A stretch of 63,259 nt of DNA, counting the filler, from Choristocarpus tenellus KU-1152 (taxonomy: Eukaryota; Protista; Phaeophyceae): assembly GCA_964200185.2 (NCBI GenBank). It is 12 parts of 12 records of this genome, joined end to end, with 100 filler letters (N's around TTAATTAATTAA, not from the genome) between each part and the next. Parts side by side here need not be neighbours in the genome. Positions count along the whole stretch, not along the records: positions 23,380 to 26,579 come from CAXNAD020021591.1; 11 more parts are not named here. The stretch is one strand, 5' to 3'. The notes beneath the pieces were generated by a model. The model saw only the letters and a program-made list of their open reading frames with translations, was not told the DNA's origin and did no database searches. Made by a program: the position numbers and the translations under genes. Below are positions 14,642-53,121 of this stretch, one piece after another. How positions within the stretch are numbered: position 1 is the first letter of the stretch; each line of letters begins with the position of its first letter.

Positions 14642-17600
14642 CTGGCACACTGTATGTCCCCAGACAGTCTCCGCCAGGACCCCACACCCGGACTGTCCCA
14701 TCATTGGAGGAGCTGCAGAAGGCCACACCCTCATTCCCAGCATCGGCCACAGAGCAGAGGTCACGTATTGAACCAGCATGCTGTGTCAAGCTGCGTACCT
14801 CCTATGTTTGTTTGTTTGTTTGTGTGTGTGTGTATTTGTGTGTGTGTGTGTGTATTTGTGTGTGTGTGTGTGTGGGCACGCGAGTGTGAGTATGAGTAGA
14901 TATAAGCATTACTCAACTTCTCCTTTCAAGAAGTATGCTGACGACAGCATGATATGGTAGTTAAAACAAATGTTCAGATTTTGTTGAGAAAATAATAAGA
15001 TTAGGATTAGTACTTATCCAAGACTTGACATCGTTTTCTTGCATCAAAAATAGCTTGTAACAACTCAACATAAACACGGTAATACTCTGTGATGTATGAG
15101 GGGAGGGGGGAATAGGGATGTGACCATATATAGGCCTGTCATGCATTTATATGAAAGAAGATGGTGAGTAGGTCAGAAAGCAATCAAAAATGAGGGACTA
15201 GAGCAAAAGGGGGGGATCTTTGCAGCGAGCAGATTTAGTGCAAATACCGAATTCGATCACGAAGGAGCAGTCTTGTGAACCTGAATCTGGTACTGGTGAA
15301 ACAAATGGCTGCACTCCAATGACCTATTTTGAAACACCATCACAATATATTGCAGCACTTACAAAGCGGTGTTTTCAATTGCTTTTTGCCACAAAAAAAA
15401 GAATGTGTAAATTGAAAAAAAAGTTTGACCAAAATAGACAACATGATAAAATAGTCGTAAACTGGAATGGAAGGAAGAAAACACATGCACCACTTCAGGT
15501 TTATGGTACAAGCAACATCAGAGCCCCTTGATTCTCATGAATGTCTCAAAAAAAATACCACGAGTGCATCATCAATCAACCTAAATATTGTGTTATTATC
15601 TTCTCTGACAAACCTCCAATAAAACCCGTGGTTGTTCAGCACACTCTGGTTGCTACGGAGCATTCAAGATTTTTCAACATTCCAGGTCGCGCCAATTTGC
15701 AAAGTCAAGCACAACATCAGAACAATATCAAACTGGATAAATGGAAACAACCAGTGGCAGCATTCAACAGAAACCCAACAAAAATGAATCAACACAGAAA
15801 AAAAATTGAAGAAAAACAATGTATAAATACTCTTGGAAAAATAAAAATTGGGACGTCTGTTTCCATCTATAGCTGAAAATGTACCATTTCATAACAGCTG
15901 AAAAACAACCACACAACACAGCAGCACCACACAATGCCACCCTGCGTGGTTTGGGGTGGGGAAGGGGGGGCAGGTATTGATGAATCTTGAAGCATTCACA
16001 CACGGACAGGAGCAGGTGTTTTTGCTATCACATGTGACACAAGGTGTATCAAGACTCAGCAACGTATCAAATCTACCTCATTATCCTCTCCGTGGTTCCA
16101 AGAATACTCTCTCGCCTTAAGCTCGGCCTTTACACTGCAATCTTCTAAATCATGTCCCCATCCCAGTCACCTCCCCAAGGAAATCACAAAAAAAAAAACC
16201 CTGCCCCCACCCCCTCCCTCTCCTTCTCCGTCCCCTTCCCTCAGTGTCAAGCCCGACCCCAAGCCTTTCCAGGTAAAGCCAAATCTAATTTCATGGCTCG
16301 TTTTGACTCAAGTACAAAATCAGACTACTGAAACAACCCCAGGGCGTTTATATTGTATTGTTCGGTTCAAGCAGGGATTCTGGGCTACCTCTCTAAAAAG
16401 AAAAACGCTTTTGTTTCTGCTGACATACCTTCGGCGGCGTTCCCTGCCAAAGTCGGATCTGGTAACCTAAAAGCTTTCCCTCCACCACAATGCCTGTAGA
16501 GCCAGTGGCAATGAGGCTAGAGGCCAACCCAAGGACAGACACATTGTTCTGCACAATTACAATGGGAGAGGCGTGAGAAAAACAATTGGAATGATGGAGA
16601 AGAGTAGTTCCACGAGGTCAAACTAGCTACACCAATGGTTAGCACAACCGATACTGCAGTATGCATGTTTGTTTCACCGCCATATTTTCAACATGTGCAT
16701 TTCACTGCAGTGGATACTTCCTAAGAGCAACAAAGCACAGAGAAAACAATTCACCAAAAAGCAGGAATGACGGCATGACTGGTTGACGGAAAAGATATTT
16801 GAAAATGAAAACAATCAACAGTCTGAAAAACTGCAAAAAGTAGCTGGAGCAATCACACCAGTATTCCGTCCTTCGCTTTGTCTCACAGTCCCTTGCCAAC
16901 ATGATAGCCCCTCATACCACCCCACCCCTCAATCACACCTCTAGGCAAATCTCCCCATACAAGAAATTAAAAGGGCGTAACAATCTCCAGAAACTGTGTA
17001 TGCGTGCACATCCATGACCACAACGCTTACATCGAATACACCAAATGTTCCCCTCCCCACTTCAACACACTACAAGTTCCCCTGGTGCAGATAAATTCAC
17101 TCTAGTGACTCCTCCAGCCTCTTGACCTCACTGTACCTCATGCCCGCCAAGAACCCACGTGCATGATCCAGAGTCGACATCCCAGCCTCTTGCTGTGTCA
17201 TCCCAAGACCCCGAGAGTAGCAGGCCAGAACTGGTCCATGATAGTGAGCAGATCGGTGCTGAGTGCCCCAGAAGAGTCCTACCCACAGAGAAGAGGGTTG
17301 CAAGTATATTGATGCAGAATACATTGATTGGTAAATGAGAAGGGGGAGTAGGAGGGGCAGGCAGTGCAGGGTGGTAATTGAGACTCTGGGTGGATTCTGA
17401 TGAAAGAAGCCCTAAGCGAAATGTTGTGGTACAGAACAGTCCTCACTGACGAAAGTGAGCTGCAAATAACCTGTAAAAAATAAGGAAAATGAATGGGTCT
17501 GCGCCGCCCAGGCAGGTCACAGAACAGTCGCATGAAACTCCTTGAACGCCTCGCTGAACGTGAAAAATATTGGTGCAAGATGAAAAAGTTATGAACATCA

Positions 17601-19273: not shown

Positions 19274-19366
19274 ATTACGAAACATTTTGGAGTCGGAAAA
19301 TGTCATAAAAAAACCCATGGGAAGCCAAACAGGGAAAAATTCGTACCCTCTAAGATAGTTTCACTC
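19274..19366 (+). mobile_element. MITE family A, partial (right end) at contig edge
   Basis: GGAAAATGTCATAAAAAAACCCATGGGAAGCC...CGTACCCTCTAAGATAGTTTCACTC. Confidence 0.8.
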
Positions 19367-22300
19367 AATTGTGGCTTTCTTCTTGGCAAAAAGGTTTCAT
19401 TTTTACCGTCAGATACAATGGGGCGAAATTAATTAAAATGCTCTCGACACTGTTCCAAATTTGCTAAACAATCAATCGAGTAGCTTGTGAAATATTGAGA
19501 TACCACTGTTAAAATCGGAGGCTAGAAAGCTAACTCAGAACAGTCTGTGGGCCATCACCCTGCTGATCATGTGCCCCTCCCCGAGTGGTCATCTCAACCT
19601 TCATGTTCCCCTTCAGTCCGATCCTGGACCTCTTTCTCACACTATCTTTATCCTCCAGCTGGGATTCGGCCCCACAGCCTCTGATCTTGTGACACATTGA
19701 GGTCGCTCCCAACCAGCAGAGAAACAAGAGTGGTAAGGTTCGGGTGTAAATCGAACTATTTTTCGAACAGTTTGGAATGGGGGATAAGGTCATGTTCGGA
19801 AACTTACTTGGACAGAGTGATGATCACAGTTGGACATCAGGGTAAAAAGGGTTCGGGATAGATTAATACAGAGGTTACACAACTCTGCCTTTTTCCTTTG
19901 TTCTCAAAGTTGTCTTGATAGTAAAATGGAAATTACAGAGTCAGTTTATTTACTCTTCCTTGTGCCTGGCATATGATACCACACTATGCACTGTTTCTTA
20001 CGGGCCCACCGAGTTAAGCCTTGCTAAAACTAAGACCCAATTTGATACCCTAGAGATATTTGTACTGCATGATACGGACACATACAGCAACCCCAATTTT
20101 CTTTAAAATATTGATAAAAAATATATACATTTTGATATTGATACAGCAAAAGACTTTGGACACTGCCAACCAACATCGACAAGTTGGCCAACTGTAGTTT
20201 ACAACACACAGTGTCGCTCGATTTATCAAGTGTAGTGAGTACAGTTTGCTGCTGCTTCTATACCTGTTCACATACAACGTGTGATACCAACCATGTCATT
20301 CTTTTGTTCAGCTTTTTGGATGTTTCATAATTAAAGGATCAAGGTCATGCAATAATATATTGTGCACCGTGACTCAACTCTGTATCGACCCTAATAAATA
20401 CTGTGAAGATTACTCCTAAGTGACCCCACACCCTTCATCCTCATTTTCATTTACTGGGACCTACCGACTCGTGTACATCGAGGATGACAAGTGAGGTGAT
20501 GAAGTACATTTAACACGCAGAGCGTGGGCTGAGGTTGTGTAGGAGTGATCCATGCTTGTACTGCATTTCCTACCACCCTCTCCCTCGACATATAACAAAC
20601 CTTCCATTTCTTACTCTTCTTTTTACCTGTAGCCATCACTGTTAGAGTCGACTGATGTGCTCAAGGATTATGCCTGTTTCATCGACTGCATTAACCAGTA
20701 GTCACCTGACTCACGGTAAGGTAGTGTAAGCCCATCCTTCAGAAGGGGTGTTGGCAGAGCATTGCCGAATATTCTGACAGGCATTAATCCACTCTATCTA
20801 TCTAGACCTGCCCAAGCTACCTACCATAAGTTGCAACTAACTATGCATACTGGAGTCGAGGACATCGCACACCTCACCAAAAAATCTCAGTAGAGTACAG
20901 TTGCACTATTTACTATCTCACAGACTGTCTGTACCAGAACATGTATTGCACCAGATTTGCTGGAGATGTGGAGTTCAGCACGCAACTCTGTCATGAAGAA
21001 GCCCTTGACTTAGGCATACTACACCTAACGAGAAGGATAAGCAGACTGGACTTTGGACTTTGGATTTATCGCATATCTACCAATGAGCACACACTTGTAC
21101 ATGTTCTACCAAAACCAAGGTGTTACACTCCAACGCTTGGGACCAATTGTGTTGCCTGTGTAACGTCAGTTTTCTAGGGCAAAGGCTCAGGGCCCATATT
21201 TCTGGAACACCAGTTGTGAGGGCTGCAGTCACAGTCACTTAGAGTACAAGGTTCGTTATCCGGGACAGCCCCCAGTGCTATACTCTGTAGTATATGTTGT
21301 GCAGGGAACACTCGGGGTCATTTTCTGTGTAACGTCCATTGTCCAAACAAAGACTGAGTCCATTTCCCATGAAACATCTAAGATCAGGACAATGCTTTGT
21401 ATAATGTAACTTTAAAATGTTGAGTTGTGATATGCAAAGCTTAGTTTGTCCGAGGTATGATATATGTGTGCATATATACCATACCTCAGCACTAACAGGA
21501 GCATGACCATCCGTCAGCAAAAGGCAAAGTACTGTTCGAGAACTCTAGAACTCCCCCCCTCCAGCGCACATAGCCAGCACTCACCTCCTCAACAAGTATC
21601 TGAACACTATCTTAGCGGGCATGCTTGTTGCTTCTTACAGGGCTGAGGAGTAGGGAGAGTGACACGCAAGGTTGGTCTGATGAAGAGACGGGGTAGCTCT
21701 GACAATAGCTCCAGGATGAGTACGAAGAAAATGATCTGAAGCGTTAAGTTGACCTCCCTGCAGAATTTGTTCTTGCAACAGATGAGGGTGACTGGAAAGG
21801 CATCCTTGTTCCTTTGCCGATGATAGTGGTGTTGGCAACAGAGAGCGATCGTACAACCTCATATTTGGTGAGATAATCCTCAATCAGTTGTGGGTCTTTA
21901 CAATTATTGAAGCTGCCTTGAAAGTAGAACTCAGTAGTGTACCTCCAACTCCAACAAGATAAATGCTTTTTTTCTTCTTTCCGTTCACAACTGACTCAGA
22001 AACATTTTGTGGGATCCATTTATGTGTGAACTTACAACTATAGAGCATTGCACTTAATCTTGCATATGTTTGTCGCAGGAACAATAATAGTAATGTCCTC
22101 GCTGTGCTCTTTAAGTTAGCAAATAATGTTTATTGTTTAATGTATAATGTCAAAATCTTGAGGTTACAAAGTGCATGACGCTAAGAAACTAGGTCCATGG
22201 CTTCTCTGTCTTTGCCATGTGCTCCGGACCTTGTAGATGGACTTCCTTGATCTCTTGAACCTTGATTTCTGATACTCTACAACAGGCTTGTCTTGATGAT

Positions 22301-22852
22301 AATGAAAGCACCTGATAAGAACTTCTGGGGTGCGTGGGATAGAGTGTGAGAAAATCTGGGCTGTTTTGCTTCTTTAATGTTGATCTTGTCCACATTTCAA
22401 AAAGAAACATTCCTCAAGTAGTGGTGGAAGTATTATCATCACTCGATGTAGAAGCCATAGCTAGCATCTAATTCAAAGTCATAATATTGAACCTTCACCA
22501 CCTCCAGTCTTCCTCTTCCACCTTCTCACTCCATATCCTTAGGTTGATATGTGACTTCTTGTTACTATCTGGTTTAGTGATCCTATGGAGATGACAAACC
22601 CACGTCAATGTGACCTACCCATTTCTGTTTTCGTCTTCGTTGTAATAGTGCGTTTGTCTGCCTGAAATTCTGTTTCTCTAATTCTACTCGGAATACTGTG
22701 TTGGTGTCCTGCACGATTTATGTATGTGATGCGTTTTTCTGAACGTGTCTAGATATTTGGTTGGATCGATGTACACTTTGATAGTAGGACGCTCACTGCA
22801 GTCTCAAGTAGTATTGCAAGTCTATCTTTCTTTTGTTGTTTGAAGTGCTCGT

Positions 22853-23279
22853 TGTTGAAACCTGAATGGAATGCTTCGTACATGTAAGCAAAATGCGTAG
22901 ACTACTAGCGATGAGGAATCATGGCGTTGCGAAGCATTGATGAGTGATATGCGTAGTCTATGTTATGTACAGGTGTGATTGTGCTGCAAAGCACCGATGT
23001 ATTTATTCTGTTGTAACTGAGGTCATTGATCTCTCATTCAAGAATTATGCGATGTGAATTCAGTATTCTTTCATGTGACACTCAACCAAACAAGTCCATG
23101 CTGTGTGGAGAGGCTTGTTACCTTGGCTGGCAAGGGTTTCTGCGGATGTTTTAAACTCTGAGTGTATTACATTCGTGTGTGTGTTTGATACACAGTTTGC
23201 AGAGAGAGAGGCGTTGATGCAATTTGAGAGATCAATGGCAGTCACGAAAGAAATAATAATCAACCATCAAAGTACAACT
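22853..23279 (-). mobile_element. LTR (3' part, truncated by gap), same family as 44479-45245 and 59698-60365
   Basis: Long reverse-complement match to ~44800-45245, ending exactly at ...CAGGTTTCAACA. Confidence 0.8.
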
Positions 23280-23539
23280 NNNNNNNNNNNNNNNNNNNNN
23301 NNNNNNNNNNNNNNNNNNNNNNNTTAATTAATTAANNNNNNNNNNNNNNNNNNNNNNNNNNNNNNNNNNNNNNNNNNNNACCCGAAAATCAATAAGTTGG
23401 TTGACAGGGTATCTAAACGCGGGATAACTATCTCAACTTAGGTTGAATAGTTCGACACAGGGATATCTCGCAACAGCTGTAACCCAACTAGAGGAGGAGT
23501 AGAGCGCGACCATCCCACCAATGTCGACAACTCTCTCAC

Positions 23540-24501
23540 CTTTTGGTACATTCTGCGGATCTCTCCTAGTGACACATCTTTCTTCTTCATCTGTCGCTTG
23601 ATAGCTTCTTTGAGCTTGTGCTGAAAATATATCTTATCGTATAATGTGCGCTCAACCACACTCTCTGTCGCGTCATTGAATGCTAGAAGCATGGCGGTGC
23701 AGTGGGGGAACGGGACAAGGGTTAGGTGGGGAGCGATCGCGGGACACACGCGGCCTGCGGCACCGAGAAACATGTTGCTGTGGACAGGAATACCACGAGG
23801 GATAAAAAAGATGAGCAACGAAAATATCCACAATGGGCTGACTGACAATGAACGTAGCAAAGGAAACTCGACAACTTCGTATATCAGAAAAGTCATCAGG
23901 CGATCACGGAACAACAATAACACTACATTACTTCGGTGCTTAGTTGATCAGAACGGTCAGGCGATTATGGAACAACGAAAACAGTCCATCACCCACCGTT
24001 GGCAATTAGCCTCTCTTCCGAATGCTCGAACTCCACGTAGTTCCGCATGGTCAAAGCGTGCTCGGGATCAAACACTCTCTTCAGCACCGTTACTCTATGG
24101 TTTCCGTCCAATACACTCCCTTCAACGGCAAGCGCAGTTTTGGCGTTTAGCTCATCCATATTACCTAAGCTTACATTATCTGGGGTCATACAAGAAGAAG
24201 CTGGGACATATCACATGCACAGATATGGTGCGTCCTTTAAAGGATGCTGGATGACAACACTCGGGGCAAACTGATCCATCCAGCCTTTCTCCTTTATAGA
24301 CTTATGAACGCGCGCAAGGCCACGCTCGCTTAAAGGACGCACCATATCTGTGCATGTGACGTGTCCTAGTTTCTTGCATGACCCCAGATAATGTTTATCT
24401 AGTAGCTAGGACATGCCAGTAGGGGGTAGGTCCTGCGTTCTGGATTCCAATCTTTTCCCATCGGCGGGTGGGTGGGTTGTTGATCTTGGAATGTTCAACA
24501 T
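23540..24501 (-). pseudogene. Spliced ParB/sulfiredoxin-like N-terminal domain gene (exons ~24501-23997 and 23682-23540), disrupted
   Basis: One frame reads DMVRPLSERGLARVHKSIKEKGWMDQFAPSVV...GSVLDGNHRVTVLKRVF, matching the ParB_N pattern (SI...G then DGxHR). A phase-1 intron (G|GTGGGT...CTAG|CA) joins RLIAN to AFNDATESVVERTLYDKIYFQHKL. In-frame stops at 24406-24408 and inside an inverted duplication. Confidence 0.6.
24173..24394. repeat. Inverted repeat, arms 24173-24240 and 24330-24394, with an ~89-bp loop
   Basis: 30-bp perfect core TCACATGCACAGATATGGTGCGTCCTTTAA (24211-24240) versus 24330-24359. Confidence 0.92.
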
Positions 24502-25219
24502 GGCAAAGATTGGGAGGGTGTGATGGGGATGGGTAAGTAAGATGTTTGCTTGGTATCTATGGAAGGGAATGAAATCGAAATGAAGACTGAGGGATGGGAG
24601 GTGCTGTTTTATGTCGTCTGACCTTTCAATCCTCAATCCTGCACATTTTTTATGAGAATTGCGTTACAAAAATACGAATATCAAACAGCATAGGATTTCA
24701 TATTGAACTGGGACAGAGGGTGTATTTTCATGACCTTTTCGGCCTATCACGTTTTGAACGTATGAGATCAATGAAGGATGTGGTTTGTATCTGTATTTGT
24801 TGGTGTAAAGATTAGAATATCATTCTACTTTTGGAAAAACCCTACCGCACGTGTTCTGAGTGCTCAACGGTAAAAGTGTTTACCAGTAACCAGGAATAAG
24901 ATAGATCCACTTTTTTTATGTTATCTAGTGTTTATTTAAACCCTATAGACGCCAAGAAGTGGATTTAAGGTTTATTTACATAGTGGATACCAGTTGGAAT
25001 GACTTCTTAGGTTTTCTGAAATTGGAAACGTGTGAGACCCCTAAAGCGTGTTCTTGGTATTTAAAAAAATACCTAAGCACGGTTTTCAGTGGATTTAGTA
25101 TTTTTTTAAACCCTAACGCACACGTAAAGTGGTCTAAAGAGAAAAAGTGGATTGTGGTAACCACTCTTTCTCTAAGAGTCACTTATTATCGACTTGTACG
25201 TTTATGGCAATCGCTATGT

Positions 25220-25991
25220 GATTCAAAGTATCTTAGAGGTTAGGGTCGAGTCTGAGTGAAACTATCTTAGAGGGTACGCATTTTGCCCTGTTTCTCCATT
25301 TAAGGCTTGGCTTCCCGTGGGGTTTTTTGTGACACTTTCCTACTCCAAAATGTTTTGGAGTAGTAGGTAAAATATAAATGTTATGAAAAGGTGTGTCCAG
25401 AACAAGGACATTGATACTTCCTAACAATATGACCAAAATTATGTCCAAATCGCAATATTAGATTTTGGCCCCCAAATGGACACAACTCTACCCTCTAAGA
25501 TACTTTGACTCTCTGTTGTCTGTTAGGGCCAAATCCAATGTTGCGATTTTGATTAAATTTTGGCTGTTGTGTATGTTAGGGAGTGTCAATATCCTTGTTC
25601 CATACACACCTTTGCATAACATAAATATTTCACCTACTCTAAAATGTTTCGGAGTCGGAAAATGTCTTTTTTTTAAATGTGGGAAGCCAAGCCCCAAAAC
25701 GGACAAACAAGGCAAAAATCGTACCCTAACCCTAACATACTTTGGCTCTCTGTTGTCTCTTTGGGACAAATTCCAATGTTGCCATTTTGATTCATTTTTG
25801 GGTGTAGTGTATGTTAACAAGTGTCAATATTCTTGTTCCATACACACCTTTTCACAACATAAATATTTCACCTACTACTACTATAAAATATTTCGGAGTA
25901 GGAAAATGTCTTTTAAAAAAACGTGGGAAGTCAAGCCCCAAACGGACAAACAGGGCAAAAAACGTACCCTAACCCTAACATACTTTCACTC
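25220..25991. mobile_element. Nested/tandem cluster of MITE family A: an inverted copy (25254-25511) inside an outer copy, plus a tandem duplicate body
   Basis: Multiple GA(G/T)T(C/G)AAA.TATCTTAGAGG termini and three copies of the internal body. Confidence 0.85.
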
Positions 25992-26129
25992 ATCATGTCC
26001 AATTCGGTAAGTTATGTACTTCAAATACACAGAGGGTTGGGGTTATTTTTTTACTCACCCTGGTTACTGTAAATTGGAAACATACAAACAAAATAAATTA
26101 GGTATGTGATTGATATCTTGAAAAATACA

Positions 26130-26480
26130 AATCACTAGTGATATAACGATATATTTTGTAGAAATAGAAATCACGGATATAATCTGATTTACAATTTCTG
26201 AAAGATGTAACGCAAGGATTTTCAGGATTGATGGGATCGAAAGGGTGGTCCCACCGATCGCCCGAGGATGAAACAAAATTGATTTCTGGACATTGGAAAT
26301 GTACAATAACAATTTATTATGTGATTGGTATCTTATCACTGATATAATTGGAATTTCTAAAAATAGAAATCACGGATATAATCTACCTTACAACTTCTGA
26401 AAAATGTGATGCACAGATTTTCAAGATCGGTGGGATCGAAAAGGTTGTCCCACCGATCATGAAAAGGATAAAACAAAGTT
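26130..26480. repeat. Two diverged ~200-bp tandem units, each ending in a GC-rich hairpin
   Basis: AATAGAAATCACGGATATAATCT occurs twice; perfect 11-bp stem GATCGGTGGGA/TCCCACCGATC at 26425-26458. Confidence 0.8.
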
Positions 26481-27074
26481 CATACGCTCGCCTTCGAATC
26501 TAGTAACTCCTACAACTTTTCACTGCCCAAGACCGCCTGTTGCTCGAAAAGACCATGCCAGTTGCTTCCACAGCAAGAGNNNNNNNNNNNNNNNNNNNNN
26601 NNNNNNNNNNNNNNNNNNNNNNNTTAATTAATTAANNNNNNNNNNNNNNNNNNNNNNNNNNNNNNNNNNNNNNNNNNNNCCCTAACCTAAAAAATATATT
26701 AATAAGTACCCCCCAGTACCCCCACCCCCCCCCCCCCCCCCACAGATACTTTGAGCCCTTTGTAGTAGTGTTCGTAGCGCTTGCTCTGCTGCTCTGTAGC
26801 TGTTGTTGCGCTGGAAGGATAGTAACGTTTAGGGATACAGTTTTTTTGTACACCTAGCTGGGTAAGACATGCTAACTGTAACGCCATGATTCCAACCTCT
26901 CCCAGTGCAAACAAGCACAAAAACGGAACAGCTAAGCACTTCTGTGCAGACCCTAATGGATGCAATTGCATTTTGTAGGCTTGAGTCATTTTCTGGTATA
27001 CCTTTCCACCCCACTCACTCCCTGGCACAACAAACAAAACACCAACTGAATGTTCGCATTTTTTTGTAATGCAG

Positions 27075-30000
27075 TTACCGGTCGCCTGACCCCCCTGGCC
27101 ACTGGAGGGAAGGGCACAACGGAAGAGCCTAAGGTAGTGCCTCATGATCTGATGTGCTACTGGAGGGAAGACCTCCAGGCGGATTGTGCAACGCTCAACA
27201 GGATGCTTATGTGGGTACTCTCATGGGCTGTGTACTTGTGGCTGTATTGAAGTCTCTGAAGTTGGTAGGTGAGGAAAGTACGACAGTGGTACTCCGATGG
27301 TACTTGAAGTAGTTATGCTATCCCTCTAGTTTTTTTAAAATGTATTTTGGAGAAGTAATGTTTACAGTGAGAGAAAGATTGCCTTTCATTTTTTATTTTT
27401 ATTTTTTTTTAGTGTGTACTCTAGAATACGGGGTATTTTTTTTAATTCATTTTGTTGCCTTTGTGTGGTATTTTTTTTTTGTATTTACAACAGTCTTGAA
27501 GTGATGTCGGTGAAATCAACTGCTTGTTATCGATCCATCGTGTCTACCTAGTATATGCATCACCTCTCTCTCACCTACTCACAGGGAAGCTGAACTGGAG
27601 ATTTCATACGCCTTCCTCAATATTGGAGAACTAGACTGTTGGAGAAAAGCGTATCCATTGAGAGGTGCTCTGCATACACCTGTGGTGGATGATACAAACC
27701 ACAACAGGGACAATGGTGTGGTGCACGAGAATGAGGAGAAGGGGGAAAGGATCGTTGAGGCTATAGCCCACATAGGGGTTGAGAAAGGCACGGGTAAGAA
27801 TATGAGCTCCATGTCATCATCTATGTCAAGCAGGGATAACATGGCAAGGGTGCTCTGGAGGTTTACTAATCTCAAGGTAGGAGACGAATGTCTTTGTTTC
27901 TAAGAGATCAGACTGGTAGTTATTCTTGTTCTGATATTTTTGGCAGGAGTAGAAAGAAAAAATATGCATTCAAAGGTAATAATGTTGTTAGTAAGATCGA
28001 TCATGTGTGACTAGTGTTTCGCAGCTACTACTACACATGTAAAATAATGTAGCCTGTATGGGACACAAAGCACACTATCCAGGCTAGGCTGCTGAAAGAC
28101 AAGGGGAGGGAGGGGGAGGAGAGGGACTTTTTTGCATGCAGACCTACCTGCCAACTATGAAGAGTACTCTATTGAATGGCCTTTGTTGTTGTCTATTTTT
28201 TTTACCCCATCAGAGATGGTGTACCAAACTCCATGTGGAATGTGGGTCAATATCTCTAGGTTTGTTGTCATATTAAAAAAAAATGAACTATTTATACCTG
28301 GGTTTTTTTGGATAATAAAGTCAGGGGTGAATTTTGTTCCTACGAGGGTGAGTCAGATTGCTCGCGGAAATCGCGCGCACAGCATAGAGCAGGTGTGATC
28401 CGACTGGTGTGAACTTGTCGTCCAACGAAAGAGAGAGAGAGAACAGCAGCGGTGGGTCCAAAGTCAATTGCATAGTAAGATTATTTTTGCTGATTCTGGT
28501 GCGAATCCTTTGTTCTCTGTGGTGCATAGGTTAGGGCATCTCTCGAATGGTCATGTCAAGGCTCTGTCACACTCCACTACACTGTTAAACATGACCCTCA
28601 GGCACCCCACCCCCCCTGTACATGAGATAATTTAGAAGTAGTGCACAATATTGACTGTCAGGTGATGTTGGAACACACAAGGCACAAAATAGGGAGCAGA
28701 CATATGAGACCAAGCAATGGCAGAAATGAGCTAGATAGAGTTGGTTTGAGCCAGTGCTAGTTTCAGTGAATGGTTTGTGTTGGTGGCATTTGGAATTGAT
28801 CCAAGACTGAAGGCTGGGTATGTATTTTATGCTTGTAATGTAAACATACAAAGTGCGTGATAGCAAACAAACATGGATGCCTTTGCCACAAATATAGTGA
28901 CACATTTAGACCTGGTTGGAGCAGGCACAGTCTACAGCCAAGGAGTCGGATAGTTTCTGAGTTGTGAGAACAGTGAGTAACCGGCCGAATCCCCTCCCTA
29001 AATTGAAGAAAAAGAGCATGCTAAGATTTGTAGTAAAGAGCCATTGGGCTTTGGGTGAGTACACGCATGAGAATGAGAGCTGGTACCGGTAACGCACATA
29101 ATGTGCATTAACAGGCGCTTTTCTTTTTTTTTATCACTCAATATATACTTTTCAACATCGCGTGAATGAACAGCATCCACAACCTCTGTTAGGGTCGCTT
29201 CAAATCTAATGAGCAGTGATGGTTGTGGTAGGACAAAGGAGAACACTTGTGCACAAATTATTTACACTTCTCCTATCTATCAGTTATAGATTAGTGCTGC
29301 CTTGGAAAGTTCACGACTGTATTTTACAGTTTCAAAGTACGTTTTTCTCCCATCTACCTTAATAGTGGTGACTCCAACGTACAAATTAGTTATAATTTTT
29401 TTTCTTATTTTCATCGCGCGTTACTGCATGGACGCGGAAATTGTCCAAACGAAACCTGTTGTTGAGGGGAGGTTTATTGGAGACAATAGCTCGTCCATCC
29501 AAGAAGGTTTTTCAACACTTTAGGAAGCGCTCGTGAGAAGAATATTGTAGCTTAGTTTTATCTCTCGTCTTCCTACTGCACCGATCGAATGAGGGGAACG
29601 TGAACGTATGAAATTTTGCTCTCCTCCTCCTGCCATGAAACCGCTCTGTTGTAATAGAGGTACAGTGGAATGATGCAGTGCGAGCAAAGCATCGGCACCA
29701 GTTGTTTCTATGTATGGAGTATGTGTGCGATCAAGCAAAGCACAGTGTACACCAATGGAGTACTTTTTTGTTTTGTTTTGACACTTGTTATTTTTGGCAT
29801 TTTATCTATTGAAGCTTACCGCCAAGCTATCTTCCAGTTCCCTCTCCAAAATGTAGTGCATGATGAAATACCCACAAAAGCTTGACACAAATTTTCCTTA
29901 ATTCTGATCAAGAACCTTTTTTTACACACGTCTCAATTGATATCCTTGACCTATATACAACTTATCCTCTTTCCTCCATACGCTTTGTGACCTCTTTCTG

Positions 30001-30144
30001 TCACTGTGCGATTGATCTCCAGGTTGCCTTGAAATCACAACGCACCCTTGTCCGTGAGAAGCAAAGGACCCTCACAGCAAGCGTGCGTAGGGCTGTAGAA
30101 AGTCAATGTAGGAGTCTAGACCAGCGGCGTCTTTGCCTCCTCAA
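27075..30144 (+). CDS. Internal part of an unknown gene (exons 27075-27210, 27585-27876, 30023-30144)
   Basis: Three open exons with phase-compatible GT-AG junctions: ...CATLNRMLM|EAELEISYAFLNIGELDCWRKAYP...WRFTNLK|VALKSQRTLVREKQ... Confidence 0.65.
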
Positions 30145-30716
30145 GTAAAGAAATTACTCTTTCTTGTACCTGATTTGGAGGGGGTCAGAGGTGTCGGAAC
30201 TGGACGTATATGTACTAAGAACAGTGTAGTTTTGTACATATCTTTCTGATATTGTGCTTGTGATTGAGGAGTATGTGGAGACTTATCAAATCAGAATTGA
30301 TACTATTGTTTATACTGTTGGATTGTGAGATAGTGGCGATGAGGGATCGAGGAATGTGGGGGAGGTGGTGCCTTCGTGCCTGGAGTAGGTAGTAGAGACA
30401 CCGTTTTTTGAGGCACATAATATGTCTGGTGTGGCAAGAAGAGGAGAGTGGAGAGAGCTCGCCTTACGATGAAGTCGTCAGTGGTGGGAGGTCATTGATA
30501 AAATGTATTGTGGGCTGTGTGTTCATATTCAACGTTCGGGAGGGTACAATTTGTTAAAGTATCCCCAAAATCATCAAAGAGGATAAAGGTGATAAACCCG
30601 GCGAGATTGCTTGGTGNNNNNNNNNNNNNNNNNNNNNNNNNNNNNNNNNNNNNNNNNNNNTTAATTAATTAANNNNNNNNNNNNNNNNNNNNNNNNNNNN
30701 NNNNNNNNNNNNNNNN

Positions 30717-31048: not shown

Positions 31049-31306
31049 GAGTCAAAGTATCTTAGAGGGTAGAGCCACGTCCATTTGGGGGCAAAATTCC
31101 AATGCTGCAATCTCATTGTAATTTTGGCTATCATGTTTGTTAGGAAGTGTCAATATCCTTGTTCCAGACATACCTTTTCATGAAGTATATATTTTACCTA
31201 CTCTGAAATATTTTGAAGTAGGAAAATGTCATAAAACCTCCAAGGGAAGCCAAGCCCCAAATGGATAAACAGGGCAAAACTTGTACCTTCTAAGATACTC
31301 TCACTC
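31049..31306 (+). mobile_element. MITE family A, complete
   Basis: TIR GAGTCAAAGTATCTTAGAGGGTA / TACCTTCTAAGATACTCTCACTC; flanks share TCA. Confidence 0.9.
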
Positions 31307-31683: not shown

Positions 31684-31938
31684 AAGCTAAAGTATCGTAG
31701 AGGGTAGAGCCGCGTCCATTTGTGGATGACAATCCAATGTTGCGATTTTGATGTAGTTTTGGCTATCATGTTTGTTAGAAAGTGTCAATATCCTTGTTCC
31801 GGACACACCTTTTCATAACACATTTTACCTACCTGAAATATTTTTGAGTAGGAAAATGTCATTAATAAAACCCATGGAAAGCCAAGCCACAAACGGACAA
31901 ACAGGGAAAAAATTGTACCCTCTAAGATACTTCCACTC
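31684..31938 (+). mobile_element. MITE family A, diverged copy
   Basis: Same TIR and body; no clear TSD. Confidence 0.85.
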
Positions 31939-34072: not shown

Positions 34073-34329
34073 GACTCAAAGTATCTTACGGTTAGGGTAG
34101 AGGCGTGTCCGTTTGGGGGCCAAAATCCAATGTTGCAATTTTGATGAGATTATATATATATTGTATTTGTTAGCAAGTGTCAGTATCCTTGTTCCGGACA
34201 CACCTTTTCATAATGAATAAATTAAAACTACTCCAAATCATTTTGGAGTAGATAACTATAAACCCTTGGGAAGCCAAGCCCCGATAAAAAAAACAGGGCA
34301 AACCTTTTACCCTCTAGATACTTTCCCTC
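34073..34329 (+). mobile_element. MITE family A, complete, TSD TAAT
   Basis: TAAT|GACTCAAAGTATCT...AGATACTTTCCCTC|TAAT. Confidence 0.9.
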
Positions 34330-37264: not shown

Positions 37265-37521
37265 GAGTCAAAGTATCTTAGAGGGTAGGGCCTTGTCCAT
37301 TTGGGGGCCAAAATCCAATGTTGCGATTTTGATGTAATTTTGACTATCGTGTTTGTTGGGAAGTGTCAATATCCTTGTTCCAGACACACCTTTTATATGT
37401 AGTATACATTTTACCTACTCCGAAACATTATGGAGTAGGAAAATGTAATAAATATACTCCATGGGAAGTCAAGCACCAAATGGACAAGCAGGGACTCGTA
37501 CCCTCTAAGATACTTCCACTC
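37265..37521 (+). mobile_element. MITE family A, complete, TSD CAGC
   Basis: CAGC|GAGTCAAAGTATCT...AGATACTTCCACTC|CAGC. Confidence 0.92.
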
Positions 37522-42042: not shown

Positions 42043-42300
42043 GAGTGAAAGTATCTTAGAGGGTACGAGTTTTGCCCTGTTTGTCCATTTGGGGCTTGGC
42101 TTCCCATGGGTTCTTTTATGACATTTTTCGTACTCAAATGTGGTTAGGACCTAGTAAAGTGTATATTTTATAAAAATGTGTCTGGAACATGGATATTGAC
42201 ACTTGCTAACAAACACGATAGATAAAATTACATCAAAATCGCAACATTGGATTTTGGCCCCCAAATGGACGCGGCTCTACCCTCTAAGATACTTTGGCTC
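42043..42300 (-). mobile_element. MITE family A, complete, TSD ATGT
   Basis: ATGT|GAGTGAAAGTATCT...AGATACTTTGGCTC|ATGT. Confidence 0.92.
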
Positions 42301-43499: not shown

Positions 43500-46400
43500 G
43501 CTTGTAATTCACACTTGTATAACACGTAGTGAACATGGTCCAGACATGCCAGAAAAAATTTGAACTGATGGGCGACCATGGTCTGGACATCACGGGGAAA
43601 CGTTTGACTGACCAGCTGATGGACATGAACCAGGACATGTTAGATAAACTGTGGGACTGGTCTGGACATGGACATGGACCAGCTCGACACTCTATGGACA
43701 TGGACTGGACTGAGACACGTTAAATAACTGTTGGATCGGTCCGGACAGGGACATGGACCGGTTCAATACCTAGTGCACATGGATTGAGACATGTTAAACA
43801 GTTGTGGGACAGGTGCACCCGGTGTGTGGGACTTTTTAATTTGCTGACCCAATGAAAAGCCCTGTATTTAATCAGGTTGAAGTTAGAACAGGGACCCTGC
43901 CAACCCGTTCCGTCAGTTGAAGACGGAGATAGCTGCCGCCCATGAAGAGAGAACCACGGAACCTTTGATGGCCAGAAGACAGGATGTGGTACCACGGTCA
44001 GAGCAGATTAAATGCTACGCATATATATGGTAAAAAGGGACTCTTCAGCAACAAATATCCCACCAACCGCAAGAAGTGCAACGTCTGTGGGCAGACAGGA
44101 CATTTGGCAGTGACCTGCTGCCATGAACGACAAAGGACGTAGCAAGATGGGAGGTTAAGGAGTCCAGGAGATCATGGTTGTGATGCTAGTGGAGGTGTTG
44201 GAAATGGTGGTGACAATGATGGTGCCGATGTGATTGCGATAATACTCAAGGTAATGCCTAACGTGACACAAATGTTGGGATGAGAATGTGAAAGACTGGG
44301 AGGGACCTTTCTAGTTTCTGATGACACAGACTGCGACTTGGTGAGACCAATAGATGCTAAAGAATAGATTTTGACATCGCAGTATGCAGTCAGACGACAG
44401 AGGTTTTGCTGGTGTGCGAGTTTGGATGAAGAATGTACAAGGAGAGACAAGGAGATTGTGGCCGATGGAAAGGAACACTGTTAAAAGATAGGCTACTCAT
44501 CTTGTTCCTTAATACGATACAGTTCCACCAGTCAACACTGACTTTTGATTGGTCTGTTACGTTCTGGACGTTACTTTCACTAGTTCGTGATCACCACATC
44601 AACGACAATCAGAACACCTTAGTACAGAACAGTCACTTTACGTTCCACACAAATAGTATAGTATAGTATAGTATACGTCACTATACTATGCATCACATAC
44701 TGGTTCGATTTTGTTCTCTTGTTCTCTTGTTCTCTTGTTTGTTTTTCTTTCACTCTTTTTCTTCTTATCAGCAGAAGACAGTTGTACGTTGATGGTTGAT
44801 TATTATTTCTTTCGTGACTGCCATTGATCGCTCAAAAAGCACCAAGCTCACTCTGCAAACTGTGTAACAAACACACACATGCATTCAACATCATCGGAGT
44901 TAAAACCATCCGCGGAAGCCCTTGCTAGCCAAGGTAACAAGCCTCTCTACAGAGCGGGGACTTCTTTCGTTGAGTATCACATGAAAGAACTCTGAATCCA
45001 TATCACATCATTCTGGATTGAGCAACCAAGAATACTGAATTCATATCGCATCATTCTTTGCTGAGAGAACAATGACCTCAGTCACAACAGAATAAATACA
45101 TCGGTGCTTTGCAGCACAATCACACCTATCCATAACATAGACTACGCATATCGCTCATCGGTGCTTTGCAACACTATGATTCCTCATCGCTAGTAGTCTG
45201 CGCATTTTGCTTACATGTACGATGCATTCGATTCAGGTTTCAACAAACACCACGTTGCTGGATGGGGCTTGATATAGATGGTGCTTACGCCAGAGAAAGA
45301 GGGAGTAGTATACACAGCCTCCATGAAGAAGTTTGCTGTACTGCTCACATTATATTGCAAATTATCCTCTGTTCAGACTATCTGCAAGACATCAGGGCGA
45401 TGCATTATTGTCGAGACTGACACATTGACGATTGAGGGAAACAATGAACTGGATGATCTTGTGATACCAGTGTTAAATGGCTTTTACATGGGCTACATGT
45501 ACCAGGTTTTACCTCGAGAAACCTGAACTGGATTAGTGGCTATATTAAAAATGTTGGGTTCAATTGCAACGAGTTTCATAGACGGATTGGGCATCCTCAT
45601 GAACTGATAACACGCAAGACTGGAGCAACACCTGGAATTGATATGGTTGGAAGTTGGGAACCATGTGTTGGGTGCTGTCAGTCCAAAGTCATCGTGCTCC
45701 AGAGCCACAAAGAACAGATTCTCGGGCAAGCAGGAAACTGGCTCAGATATTCACTAATCTGAGTGGGCCTAAACTATTCCATGACCATCATCGATGATTG
45801 TACGAAAATGAAACGGATACAATTCCTGGCCAAGAAGGATGGTGCGACTGGTGCACTGGCAGATTTCATCTCAGATATGGTGGTTTCGAGTTCGGAAGTG
45901 AGGCTTTTCAGGATGTGCTGACAAATCACAAGATTCGTTATGAGTTCAAAGGTACTTTTACCCCAGAATATGATGGTATACCAGAATGGGCCTTGGTCCT
46001 GATTTCAGAGAAAGTGATGGCCATAATGGTTTGTGCTGGACTTCAAGGCAGACTCAATTTGTCGGCTGAAGCTCAGAATTATACATGTCATCTCAGTATT
46101 TTTTGTGCCACTCACGCCAATGAAGATTGGATTTCACATACAAGCTGTGGCACGAAGAACAAGGCAAATAGACTGCTGAGTTTTGGGATTGTGGGTTACG
46201 TGCAGATGGCCAAACGCAACAACAAACTAGTGGTACAAGGGTTAAATTGCTTGTTGATGGGGTTAGCTGAGCATCACCGAAGGGGCTCCTGGCAAGTTCT
46301 ACATGAGAGATCACACCAGTTGATCCGACAGTCTGTAACATGGCACGCACTCCCCCCTTCAATGTCTCATGATGATGAGGAGATTATAGCTGAGGAGCCT

Positions 46401-47080
46401 GAATCGTTGTTGGATTTACTCGAGATGTTTGAGGATTTAGAGAAATCTTAGTGAGAAGGCTGCGCACGGGGAGAAATCTCGCGAGTCTCACAGCAGGGGA
46501 AGGGGTCTCGCGGTGTGTCATGTGGTCTAATGCTGCGCGAGTTCGCAGATTTTCTGCCAACACCCAAGTCTCTGAAGCCAGAATCTCAGTGTTCGAAGAG
46601 GGCTCATCAGAGGGCCATCATGAGAGACGACTGAGGGACTTCGAAATGTACAATAGCGGCTACCTTAGCTAAAGCCCTGAGTGTTGGAGAAGTAGTCCAT
46701 GAGGCTGTCTAGATGCCCATGGAGTTCCCTGACGGGCTGGCTAATACCCTGCCACCTGAACCACGATCCGGTCGGTACGCTTTACAGTCACCGGAAGCAC
46801 CATTTTGACTGGATGCCATGGCGAAGGTGTAGGAAAAACTGGTAGAGAATGGACTCTGGGGCGAGGTAAAAAAGCCTTTGGATCGCACAGTGGTGCTCCC
46901 TCGCCAGCACTTTACATTTGGTGATGACAATTGCTGTGCTGGATGGCCTGGAACTAATAGGCTCTGATGTAAGGTAGGCTTTTGTGCAGGCAAATGTCGA
47001 GGAAGGTATCTAACTTCATTGAACTAACAGAGGATGTAGCAACCACACCAGGAGCGGTTGGCAAACTCAAAAGAGGTCTC
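43500..47080 (+). mobile_element. Decayed Ty1/Copia LTR retrotransposon (gag knuckle, protease, integrase, start of RT)
   Basis: CNVCGQTGHLAVTC (CCHC) at ~44077; IVADGKEHHVAGWG protease region once the nested LTR is removed; integrase-like ORF 45798-46451 (GGFEFGSEAF...YEFKGTFTPEYDGIPE...AEAQNY...FGIVGYV); INT before RT as in Copia. Confidence 0.85.
44479..45245 (+). mobile_element. Solo LTR nested in the Copia protease region, TSD AACAC
   Basis: AACAC|TGTT...AACA|AACAC; removing it restores the reading frame. Confidence 0.88.
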
Positions 47081-47103: not shown

Positions 47104-47230
47104 TGAGTGAAAGTATCTTACAAAATACAAATTTTCCCTGTTTGTCCATTTGGGGCTTGGCTTCCCACGTTTTTTTTTTACATTTTCCTACTCCAAAATG
47201 TTTCGGTGTAGGTAAAATGTATACGTTTTG
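47104..47230 (-). mobile_element. MITE family A, partial at contig edge
   Basis: GAGTGAAAGTATCTTA...CCTGTTTGTCCATTTGGGGCTTGGCTTCCCA. Confidence 0.8.
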
Positions 47231-49899: not shown

Positions 49900-51527
49900 T
49901 AGTTAAGTATCGAGGGGCTAAGAGATGGAGGAGAGAAGTTAAAGAAATTAGTGGTAGGTGGAGATACAGGGGAAGAAGCAATGGTCAATATTGAAAAGGT
50001 TGCCAAGGGCTGGGGGTACAAGACAAGGAGGGCGAGAACAAGACAACCTCCGAGCAAGCTCTCATCAGAATGGATCAAGGCAGAACCCGAGCAACCTTTC
50101 CTACAGCTGAAAGAGTGAGAAAGGCCCTGTGGAAAAGGCGGGGATGCTTGAGATCAAGATATACAAATGATAGGGGAAAGCCCACGAGGCAAGGGGGATG
50201 ATGACCGTGACAATGACAAACATTGCAGATAGGTGTATGGTAGGAATGGGACATGTGTGGTGAAGTGGGTAGATTCAGACACAATGCAAGGGGTATCCGG
50301 GGAAATCCATGGAAGAAGAAATAATGGAGGACTGACCATGATGTTATGGTGGAGTGAAACAGGATTGACGCGTAAAAGATGAATCGGGATGATTCCTACA
50401 CTAGTGGTCCTGGCAGAAGTGGGAGTAAATGTTAATACCATAGGTTCTAAACACTAATACTTTATAGGTTGGTATGCACAGCAGGACAGAAAGGGTTGAG
50501 GGTCCCGCCAGAGTTATAGTCTAAGGAGTAGACGGGGATGAGTAGTAGAGTGAGCCGTTTAAGTCACAAACATGGTTTTCCGATGGAGTTCACGATAAAA
50601 AGAAAAGATAATGGGTCAAGGTAGAAGTAGTGTACCTGTGACAATCTTGTAGAGTAAGTGCAATTTAGATATTGCTTGAAATGTAGATCTGGTGCAGATA
50701 TCAGGTCTATATCGATCGGTGATGGAGTGTGTGGGTTGTTTTCCGCTGCCTATATCGTTCACTCCAACCCATATGGCAAGGAAAATCGAACAGCGTGGGC
50801 TCATCATAGAATGATGTAGAGGGGACCACCCCATTCAAGGATCACGCATGAAAAGAAAGTCAGACAAGACGAGTTTTCGAGGAGCTCGATGCGGAAAGGG
50901 TTTAATTTCGGAAAGGGGTTAAGTTATTGCTGTGTGGACACGATGCATGAATGCGTTGAATCGGGGAGGCTTATGAGGGTGTTTTTTGCGCTCTTTGCCA
51001 TGAATGTGGGATTAAACAGGAGTTCACACCTGCAGACGGCCCTCAATTTAATGGGGTCGCTGAAAGCATGGGAGTAAAGTATCTTAGAGTGCGAGTTTGC
51101 CCTGTTTGTCCATTTGGGGCTTGACTTCCCATGTTTTTTTTAGGACATTTTCCTACTCCGAAATGTTTCGGAGTAGGTAAAATGTATACGTTATGAAAAG
51201 GGTGTCCGGAACAAGGATATTGACACTTCCTAACAAACACGATAGCCAAAACTACATCAAAATCGCAACATTGGATTGTGGCCCCCAAATGAACGCGGCT
51301 CTACCCTCTAAGATACTTTAGTTAATGCTGGGTATTATTGATGAAGCTTTATTAGTTGCCCGCCTTCAAGCTCCACTACCATTCCCCCATGTCACTATCC
51401 CCAAAACAGAGTCTCTATGGGCTGAAGCTCAACACTATGTCTGTGACTTGCTCAATTGTACATCGACCACGGCTAACCCGGGTTGTATATCACTGTATGA
51501 AATGTGGTATGGCACCCCTGCACCCCT
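49900..51527 (+). mobile_element. Second decayed Copia element; integrase interrupted by a MITE
   Basis: FCALCHECGIKQEFTPADGPQFNGVAES[MITE]MLGIIDEA...SLWAEAQHYVCDLLNCTSTTANPG..YEMWYG; left boundary approximate. Confidence 0.82.
51071..51324 (-). mobile_element. MITE family A inserted in the Copia integrase
   Basis: Family TIR and body; near-TSD with ATG on both sides. Confidence 0.88.
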
Positions 51528-52506: not shown

Positions 52507-53121
52507 CTGAAAGCGATATCTCCTGTCCCTCCTGCTACATCCAGTACACGAGGGGCGCATTCCCCAGCCTCCCAGCCGGCCTTGATCCCCAGCATGCTTA
52601 CAAACTCATCCTTCCACACCCTGTGCATACCTGTGAGAAGATGTATACGAACTTTTTCAAAATACAATTTGCAGTATGTTTGTGATGTGTAACATAAATG
52701 CTGCCACAGTGGGCATGAGAGAGACAAATCATTTTATTTATTTTTTTCACATTGCGAACGAAAACTGTTGCTGCATTGACAGTTGATCCCAATAAAAAGC
52801 ACAGCAGGAGGACACCACATTTGCACGCTAAAACTTGGGGGATGAGTGGCAATATGTAACAGGGGTGCCAAGGCAATCCTCTACGTGTCGTTTCCTTTAT
52901 AAACAAATTATACACACAAGGTAGTCAACAGGCAAAGGACAGGCATATAATATTCAAGGAAGAGAACAGAATGAGAGTTGGTTGATTGCGATGTATTAGG
53001 ATTGTTTGTGGAAGTTAGTCACACTTACATAGTAGAAGCAAAATTTTCAGACCCTGATAACTTCTGTGATAGAAACCAGCATCAAGCAGTCAACATGCGC
53101 GCGCGCACACACACACACACT

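What the first reader, a model, noticed from the sequence alone, without database searches (positions are those of the whole stretch)
23540..24501. Intron-containing ParB-like domain gene in a eukaryotic genome
Seen: one minus-strand frame, invisible as a single ORF because of two stops, reads ...YLGSCKKLGHVTCTDMVRPLSERGLARVHKSIKEKGWMDQFAPSVV...VLDGNHRVTVL..., and a GT-AG intron joins it in phase to a basic helical exon (TLYDKIYFQHKLKEAIKRQMKKKDVSLGEIRRMYQK). Established: 'SI...G' followed by 'DGxHR' is the nucleotide-binding signature of the ParB/Srx fold, mainly prokaryotic apart from sulfiredoxin (whose FGGCHR motif is absent here). Inference: a eukaryote-adapted ParB-like family, probably the cargo or accessory gene of a mobile element or endogenous virus. 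The upstream 24840-25200 stretch has repeated ACCCTA-type motifs and a hairpin (AGAGAAAAAGTGG/CCACTCTTTCTCT) that could mark an element end.
Basis: partly seen in the sequence, partly recalled or inferred. Interest (0 to 1): 0.8.

Follow-up and report, generated by a model that had tools for sequence, protein, structure and literature searches.

The report
Broken ParB-fold gene of seaweed transposon
This is a broken copy of a repeated, intron-split gene whose named relatives come from brown seaweeds and are predicted to fold like the bacterial DNA clamp ParB; it likely rides on a giant DNA transposon, a kind of passenger gene already reported in algae.

Summary
The minus-strand frame 24501-23997, the DGNHR motif, the GT-AG intron 23996-23683 and the in-phase second exon are real. 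A profile-free search found 40 hits; the five relatives seen with names are brown-algal, four are spliced models that join at this junction, and 55 of 78 hits run into the intron at the same place. Predicted models of two intact relatives match ParB, Noc and PadC best. The stretch is highly repeated in four sequencing runs of one study. Best reading: the accessory gene of a giant DNA transposon, like the ParB-plus-methyltransferase gene published for Ectocarpus Sola1-1_Ec32; whether it is that same family could not be tested. Element ends, transposase and the protein's C-terminal part lie beyond a 3.2-kb contig and were not found. An endogenous virus is unlikely. New member of a known kind; interest 0.45.

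The parts
23997..24501 (-). Exon 1 of the ParB-fold gene (start codon uncertain), interrupted by two stops and an insertion
   Evidence: relatives align from 24519/24501 to 23995
24406..24408 (-). Stop codon private to this copy
   Evidence: at 24408 the laid contigs carry another letter at 526 of 526, 890 of 916, 99 of 99 and 5 of 5 depth units in X1-X4
24330..24394 (-). Coding stretch that served as template for the inverted copy; one codon shorter than relatives
24173..24246 (.). Insertion in exon 1: 68-nt inverted copy (24173-24240) of 24330-24394 plus a few bases; net 69 nt, in frame; holds the second stop at 24213-24211
   Evidence: inverted repeat; RNA fold z = -13.3; all four runs have contigs that skip it; 37 of 40 protein hits have a best stretch that avoids it, 3 reach a few residues into it
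24094..24108 (-). DGNHR, the Box II (GxxR) phosphate-binding motif of the ParB/Srx fold
   Evidence: D, G, H invariant and N 30, R 28 of 32 in alignment A3; motif defined in PMC12704722
23683..23996 (-). Intron 1, GT-AG, 314 nt, phase 1, position conserved in relatives
   Evidence: spliced models P0002, P0015, P0030, P0070; 55 of 78 hits read through at this site; one X3 contig skips exactly 23683-23996
23540..23682 (-). Exon 2: conserved Asn (likely Box III), long helix and first helix of a predicted helix-turn-helix
   Evidence: 81% identical to P0002; helices in models
23380..23539 (-). Likely start of intron 2, cut by the assembly gap; exon 3 is not in the window
   Evidence: relatives P0002, P0072 lose similarity here; X3 contigs leave the window at 23537 into sequence resembling the next residues of P0015; tblastn finds no exon 3
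24830..25200 (.). Degenerate repeated motifs upstream of the gene (three AAACCCTA, several AGTGGAT in both orientations); candidate binding sites, untested
25138..25173 (.).
25220..25991 (.). Cluster of nested and tandem copies of a separate ~258-nt MITE with GAG...CTC ends
   Evidence: its terminus is joined to 24357 and 24687 in other copies

Best explanation
The locus is a dead copy of a repeated, intron-split gene predicted to encode a ParB/Srx-fold nucleotide-binding protein, and it is likely the accessory gene of a giant DNA transposon of brown algae. Shown here: the exon-intron anatomy, two stops and an inverted insertion that sister copies lack, repetition of the stretch in four runs, conservation of intron and DGNHR in relatives. 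Predicted: the ParB fold, on models of two intact relatives. Inferred: intact copies make a protein of more than 300 residues with the NTP domain first, a helix-turn-helix next and further domains behind; it would recognise repeated motifs in its own element, such as those upstream of the gene, load there in a nucleotide-gated way and bring a DNA-modifying domain (an N4C/N6A methyltransferase in the published Ectocarpus case) to mark the element and blunt host silencing. The inverted insertion likely arose by template switching during replication or repair. I put about 0.75 on transposon accessory gene and about 0.55 on the whole reading including self-targeting.
For: Fold: P0015 model pLDDT 81; all 9 Foldseek PDB matches at E<=0.001 are ParB, Noc or PadC; VIA Z 10.4, rmsd 2.5, 98 aligned to PadC, and the top 8 rows are all ParB/Srx-fold chains; same with P0030 (Z 10.8, rmsd 2.4, 98 aligned; Foldseek 1.3e-5 to a ParB dimer). 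The Atlas model of P0030 aligns over 213-247 residues with clusters of ParB_N plus HTH_ParB and of phage ParB_N plus N6_N4_Mtase (TM 0.52-0.61). Repetition: 1481, 1921, 286 and 111 contigs laid on 1.9 kb, most 90-99% alike; relatives form clusters of 67, 45, 28 and 16 near-identical members on separate large contigs. Decay with intact sisters is what transposon families show (established knowledge). Precedent: a 1104-aa ParB-like plus N4C/N6A methyltransferase gene in the 21.5-kb Sola1-1_Ec32 of Ectocarpus (PMC12477816); ParB plus 2OG-oxygenase PAG3 beside arrays of inverted repeats in red-algal Plavaka elements (10.1101/2025.02.11.637652); a phage ParB-like protein activates a DNA-modifying dioxygenase (PMC13229309).
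Against: No transposase, terminal inverted repeat or target-site duplication of the carrier was found: the contig is 3.2 kb between gaps, no genome is held, and 101 window ORFs gave only WD40 and COQ5 hits. No long or fused relative turned up in two 'longer' searches (weak tests), so the methyltransferase is borrowed from the paper. The helix-turn-helix was not matched on its own: the VIA rows for the C-terminal part are generic helical folds at Z under 8. The two hydrolysis residues of Myxococcus ParB (Q52, E93) appear replaced, by motif spacing, and in the phage system mutating conserved NTP residues did not impair function. Summed contig depth is no copy number, the four runs are one study, and the large clusters may pool several assemblies. 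A conserved intron across distant brown algae also fits a host gene.
Confidence: 0.55

Rival explanations
1. It is transposon cargo, but the ParB domain is no clamp: it is a scaffold or activator for a partner enzyme, or a passenger without a role in transposition.
For: Hydrolysis residues appear replaced; phage ParB-like activators work without the conserved NTP residues (PMC13229309); nucleotide use cannot be predicted from sequence in this fold (PMC12704722); many giant Ectocarpus elements carry genes of unknown function.
Against: R, S, G, GxxR and a downstream Asn that match the binding residues of ParB by spacing are kept across relatives down to about 25% identity, and the region after the domain follows the ParB layout in the Atlas comparison.
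Confidence: 0.22
2. It is a host multigene family of brown algae (a domesticated ParB-fold enzyme, such as a kinase or redox protein in the manner of SerK or sulfiredoxin), with many pseudogenes.
For: Intron position conserved from Choristocarpus and Sphacelaria to Ectocarpus; sulfiredoxin and SerK are among the structural matches (Z 9.1 and 8.5); one X3 contig has the spliced form.
Against: Hundreds to thousands of variant contigs cover introns and upstream DNA as well as exons; dozens of near-identical copies elsewhere; no catalytic cysteine in Box II.
Confidence: 0.12
3. It is a gene of an endogenous giant virus (phaeovirus-like) amplified in the host genome.
For: The nearest Pfam-bearing Atlas cluster for P0070 is a Nucleocytoviricota ParB_N cluster (0.93, family on 18% of members); a Cafeteria roenbergensis virus protein ranks second in the viral fold search (1.7e-5). 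A viral origin of the domain remains open.
Against: Conserved spliceosomal introns; none of the 5 named relatives is viral; three pattern scans of viral contigs confirmed no relative (these reach close relatives only); no viral gene among 101 window ORFs; viral fold matches are only 9-19% identical.
Confidence: 0.1

Closest known systems
ParB-like + N4C/N6A methyltransferase accessory protein of Sola1-1_Ec32 (Ectocarpus; PMC12477816)
   Same: Brown alga, ParB-like domain, repeated element; the family found here has Ectocarpus members (P0054, P0070).
   Different: Identity with it is untested: the paper's FASTA supplements could not be read. No methyltransferase, transposase or AACCG-CGGTT terminus was seen here; the longest relative found is 362 aa against 1104 aa.
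PAG3 of red-algal Plavaka (EnSpm) elements (10.1101/2025.02.11.637652)
   Same: N-terminal ParB-like domain invisible to Pfam and found only by remote methods; repeated inverted motifs beside the gene.
   Different: Red algae; fused to a putative 2OG oxygenase; no sequence comparison was possible.
Bacterial ParB/Spo0J, Noc, PadC, KorB
   Same: Fold (Z 9-11), Box II GxxR, likely Box I and Box III binding residues, helical region behind.
   Different: About 14% identity; DGNHR in place of the GERR type (GERR recalled; E93 and R95); spliceosomal introns; no parA seen.
Sulfiredoxin
   Same: Same fold (Z 9.1, rmsd 3.1, 87 aligned), eukaryotic.
   Different: No cysteine in Box II; long helical extension; highly repeated.
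Phage ParB_N + N6_N4_Mtase proteins and ParB-dependent T-dioxygenase systems
   Same: ParB-fold module tied to DNA modification; nearest Atlas structures include such clusters.
   Different: Prokaryotic, intronless; the modifying partner is not shown here.

Membership tests
ParB/Srx (ParB-CTPase) fold superfamily | [quoted passage not shown] | tested here: met
   On models of intact relatives P0015 and P0030, not of the window copy: VIA Z 10.4 and 10.8 to PadC; Foldseek E 1e-4 and 1e-5
ParB/Srx (ParB-CTPase) fold superfamily | Box II GxxR phosphate-binding motif | tested here: met
   G 32 and R 28 of 32 in A3; DGNHR in 59 of 78 hits by first-match pattern; definition in PMC12704722
ParB/Srx (ParB-CTPase) fold superfamily | Box I arginine, C-motif Ser and Gly, Box III Asn | tested here: inconclusive
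   R60 (28 of 32), S73 (31), G78 (30) in P0015 numbering and an Asn early in exon 2 match the spacing of R54, S68, G73, N127 of Myxococcus ParB; mapped by spacing, not by a residue-level superposition
ParB/Srx (ParB-CTPase) fold superfamily | Curated profile match (Pfam ParB_N or kin) above cut-off | tested here: not met
   No significant hit; only weak GmrSD_N, DndB, DUF6551 (E 0.02-0.2) and PHROG ParB-like (E 0.08-0.29)
Canonical ParABS ParB | CTP-hydrolysis residues (Q52, E93 of Myxococcus ParB) | tested here: not met
   By motif spacing the E93 position is Asn (30 of 32) and the Q52 position is not among the conserved columns
Canonical ParABS ParB | Central helix-turn-helix that binds parS | tested here: inconclusive
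   Helix-loop-helix in the P0030 model and Atlas alignment to HTH_ParB clusters; no separate structural match
Canonical ParABS ParB | Partner parA and parS; CTP binding and clamp closure | not testable with these tools
   Needs the whole element and biochemistry
   The position is Asn in 30 of 32
ParB-like accessory genes of giant algal DNA transposons | Many dispersed copies, many decayed | tested here: met
   dispersal itself is inferred from variant contigs and separate large contigs
ParB-like accessory genes of giant algal DNA transposons | Location between element termini with a target-site duplication, near a transposase | not testable with these tools
   No genome; contig 23380-26579; no related loci retrieved
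ParB-like accessory genes of giant algal DNA transposons | C-terminal DNA-modifying domain (N4C/N6A methyltransferase or 2OG oxygenase) | tested here: inconclusive
   Exon 3 onward is outside the window; 'longer' searches empty; relatives up to 362 aa show none
Sola1-1_Ec32 accessory protein family | Sequence homology to the published 1104-aa protein | not testable with these tools
   FASTA supplements unreadable; the five text supplements hold neither 'ParB' nor the motif
Endogenous giant-virus gene | Close viral relatives and neighbouring viral hallmark genes | tested here: inconclusive
   None found, but the scans reach close relatives only and the contig is short

The most novel reading that the evidence does not exclude
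Brown algae have carried, since before Choristocarpus, Sphacelaria and Ectocarpus parted, a transposon-borne ParB that works as a true nucleotide-gated sliding clamp in the nucleus: it loads at parS-like repeats inside its own element and spreads a DNA mark along tens of kilobases to escape silencing. That would be the first ParB clamp shown on eukaryotic chromatin and would explain how giant algal transposons stay active.
Probability: 0.2. Interest if true: 0.8.

Novelty: new member of a known kind. Interest (0 to 1): 0.45.

Why it matters
ParB-fold proteins are nearly absent from eukaryotes apart from sulfiredoxin (PMC12704722), and the algal transposon cases in print rest on single elements and remote homology. 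This finding adds a family that spans distant brown algae, keeps its intron and nucleotide-binding motif, and has intact members that can be expressed. It makes the published idea that such proteins bind and modify their own transposon directly testable. The window copy itself is a pseudogene and of little interest, apart from a clean example of an inverted self-insertion.

Tried and rejected
No genome held. Pfam on the window peptides: 0 families; on 32 relatives only weak ParB-clan hints; NCBIfam on 8, PHROGs on 8 and Pfam on 9 further relatives: nothing significant for the domain. Sequence search of solved structures with the profile: 3 weak unrelated hits. Searches for longer or fused forms: none. 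Related loci: none confirmed in metagenome contigs, viral contigs or prokaryote genomes; alignment A3 was too diverse for that tool. Homodimer prediction of P0015 residues 25-205: no answer, score 0.00 against a mark of 0.32, no evidence either way. Sequencing runs: no RNA holder listed. No exon 3 or second copy in the window by tblastn with 86 relatives. Hairpin as element end: none of the 24 loose ends listed lies there (467 rows not shown), so untested rather than refuted. The MITE cluster as the carrier's terminus: rejected as less likely, since the MITE end joins other positions of the gene in other copies and complete copies stand alone elsewhere in the window. A long inverted symmetry across the MITE cluster: not convincing. 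An intron or RNA editing that would remove the second stop: rejected, because sister copies simply lack the insertion. A family tree was not built. Earlier findings: three look-ups, nothing. Literature: 'ParB + brown algae + transposon' gave 2 papers; 'ParB + Ectocarpus' 8, of which the two giant-virus papers that I opened matched only a species abbreviation; 'DUF3723 + ParB' 0; the Repbase paper gave no Sola end rules.

Full report
Observation. The minus-strand frame from 24501 to 23997 reads as described, with stops at 24408-24406 and 24213-24211 and DGNHR at 24108-24094. A GT at 23996 and an AG at 23684-23683 bound a 314-nt phase-1 intron, and the frame resumes in the basic helical exon 23682-23540. 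The locus lies in a 3.2-kb contig between assembly gaps (23380-26579), and no genome is held.

Relatives. An exhaustive phmmer search with exon 1 gave 40 hits at E<=0.001, best 4e-38; one, P0034, is a repetitive protein and looks spurious. A profile search with 32 of them gave 42 hits, 38 of them new. I looked up names for 20 of the 78, and one search printed names for its own rows; five carry names, all brown algae: Choristocarpus tenellus (P0002), Sphacelaria rigidula (P0015, P0030) and two Ectocarpus (P0054, P0070). The rest are unnamed. That the window is brown-algal is an inference from P0002 being 76% identical over the matched parts of exon 1 and 39 of 48 in exon 2.

The intron is real and old. 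Four annotated models continue from the end of exon 1 into exon-2-like sequence (P0070 with a few extra residues). By a pattern test, 55 of 78 hits end exon 1 at the same column followed by [GCSR][EK], the translation of a read-through xGT-RAG donor; 8 were 'other' (the four spliced models, one ending at the junction, one deviant, two mis-parsed), 8 lacked the motif and 7 gave no parsable end. Many of the 55 are near-identical copies, so they are not independent. One contig of run X3 (depth 190) skips exactly 23683-23996, with only 22 letters on the short side, and X3 contigs leave the window at 23537 into sequence resembling the next residues of P0015; X1, X2 and X4 show no such joint. The kind of X3 is not on record, so this is a spliced form (transcript or processed copy) and weak support only. 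It suggests a second intron at 23539; exon 3 is not in the window.

Exon 1 contains a 68-nt inverted copy (24173-24240) of its own stretch 24330-24394, 88% alike, folding with z = -13.3. The second stop lies inside it. Protein hits match on either side and skip it, and all four runs hold contigs that join 24168-24172 to 24246-24248: a net 69-nt insertion. At the first stop nearly all laid depth carries another letter. Template switching is the likely cause (inference).

Fold. AlphaFold2 on P0015 with 32 sequences gave pLDDT 81. All 9 Foldseek PDB matches at E<=0.001 are ParB, Noc or PadC; the independent VIA search ranks PadC first (Z 10.4, rmsd 2.5, 98 aligned), then KorB, sulfiredoxin, SerK, pNOB8 ParB, SbnI, well above the histone-fold rows at Z 5.5 and below. 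P0030 repeats this. Viral fold matches are mostly phage ParB-like proteins at 9-19% identity. Curated profiles do not reach significance. Conserved columns R60, S73, G78, D114-G115-N116-H117-R118 and an Asn early in exon 2 match by spacing the binding residues listed for Myxococcus ParB, while its two hydrolysis residues appear replaced (PMC13229309, passages). Nucleotide preference cannot be read from sequence in this fold (PMC12704722, passages). P0030 and P0070 align over about 290 residues, so the protein runs on past exon 2; the Atlas model of P0030 resembles ParB_N plus HTH_ParB and phage ParB_N plus N6_N4_Mtase clusters. The helix-turn-helix is not separately confirmed.

Repetition and surroundings. 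On 23380-25275, 1481, 1921, 286 and 111 contigs were laid from four runs of one study, mostly 90-99% alike and covering introns and upstream DNA. Depth is no copy number, but so many variants imply a repeat family. Relatives elsewhere form clusters of 67, 45, 28 and 16 members at 90% identity on separate large contigs, possibly from several assemblies. Summed depth falls sharply past about 24850 in all four runs, which may mark an end or a subfamily boundary. The stretch 24830-25200 has more self-similar 20-mers than any of 200 shuffles (7 against a maximum of 5), though 13 of 262 window stretches are as repeat-rich by another measure. The strong repeats at 25220-25991 are a separate MITE of about 258 nt with GAG...CTC ends; 3 of 5 copies with both ends have exact 4-nt target duplications and 2 have 3-nt ones. 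Sola elements of Ectocarpus have 4-nt duplications; the Sola label for this MITE is only a lead. No transposase, methylase or viral gene was detected in 101 window ORFs, which were all stop-to-stop frames of 60 aa or more in 19274-30616, those of 105 aa or more elsewhere, and two added by hand.

Mechanism and precedent. Dinatale et al. describe a 1104-aa ParB-like plus N4C/N6A methyltransferase gene in the 21.5-kb Sola1-1_Ec32 and propose that such proteins bind and modify their own transposon (PMC12477816; I saw the abstract, passages, part 2 of section 5, parts 2-3 of supplement 1 and term searches of five supplements). Its FASTA supplements could not be read and bear directly on whether this is the same family. 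Petroll et al. describe ParB plus 2OG-oxygenase genes beside inverted-repeat arrays in red-algal Plavaka elements (10.1101/2025.02.11.637652, passages only, supplements not seen). PMC4738411 (passages) notes a ParB-type HTH fused to chlorophyte Dam methylases; the 2011 review cited for green algae was not read. With these, the best reading is a transposon accessory protein that targets its own element; carrier, ends and modifying domain are inferred, not shown. Rivals: cargo without clamp function (0.22), host family (0.12), endogenous virus (0.10).

Verdict. Observation confirmed; interpretation partly supported. It works like a ParB-fold targeting module, is a member of the ParB/Srx fold superfamily by predicted structure and Box II, and is neither a canonical ParABS ParB nor a sulfiredoxin. 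Seven paper searches showed no description of this family's range across brown algae or of its conserved intron, but the kind is in print and this may be the Sola1-1_Ec32 family itself (my estimate about even). New member of a known kind; interest 0.45.

Noticed in passing
window 24173-24240 versus 24330-24394: The inserted inverted copy keeps family-like residues at the three differences that can be polarised (one codon present, two substitutions), while the coding original has drifted. It may have been copied from a sister element rather than from this one; three cases are too few to tell.
   Followed up: partly
window 25254-25511, 31049-31306, 34073-34329, 37265-37521, 42043-42300, and partial copies at 51072-51319, 31689-31938, 47104-47230, 19280-19367: A very abundant ~258-nt MITE with GAG...CTC ends and mostly 4-nt target duplications; by far the deepest part of the laid stretch.
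   Followed up: partly
window about 24850: Summed contig depth drops 8- to 45-fold in all four runs just past a highly shared stretch (24788-24851) that holds a short palindrome: possible element end or subfamily boundary.
   Followed up: no
window 26060-26485: Two imperfect ~200-nt tandem units, each with an inverted pair around a short spacer; repeated in the runs at a depth like the ParB region, so perhaps part of the same element beyond the MITE cluster.
   Followed up: partly
P0070 Atlas result: A fungal DUF3723 cluster is among the nearest named clusters (0.93). DUF3723 is recalled as a Starship-associated family; no paper in the library holds both 'DUF3723' and 'ParB'. It may be another mobile-element ParB-fold family.
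   Followed up: no
window 52425-52733 (-) and 17131-17442 (-): Host exons: COQ5/UbiE methyltransferase and a WD40 repeat.
   Followed up: no
window 57321-57716 (-), 45798-46448 (+), 54178-55332 (+): Frames that by eye resemble a Tc1/mariner transposase piece and a retroelement piece, and a 385-aa open frame; none had a Pfam hit at E<=0.01.
   Followed up: no
window 22852-23279: Another dispersed repeat across the gap, with copies at 44780-45246 and 60003-60316.
   Followed up: no
window, 12 gaps such as 23280-23379: Each gap is 44 N, a 12-nt all-frame-stop linker and 44 N: an artificial join, so adjacency across gaps is not reliable.
   Followed up: no
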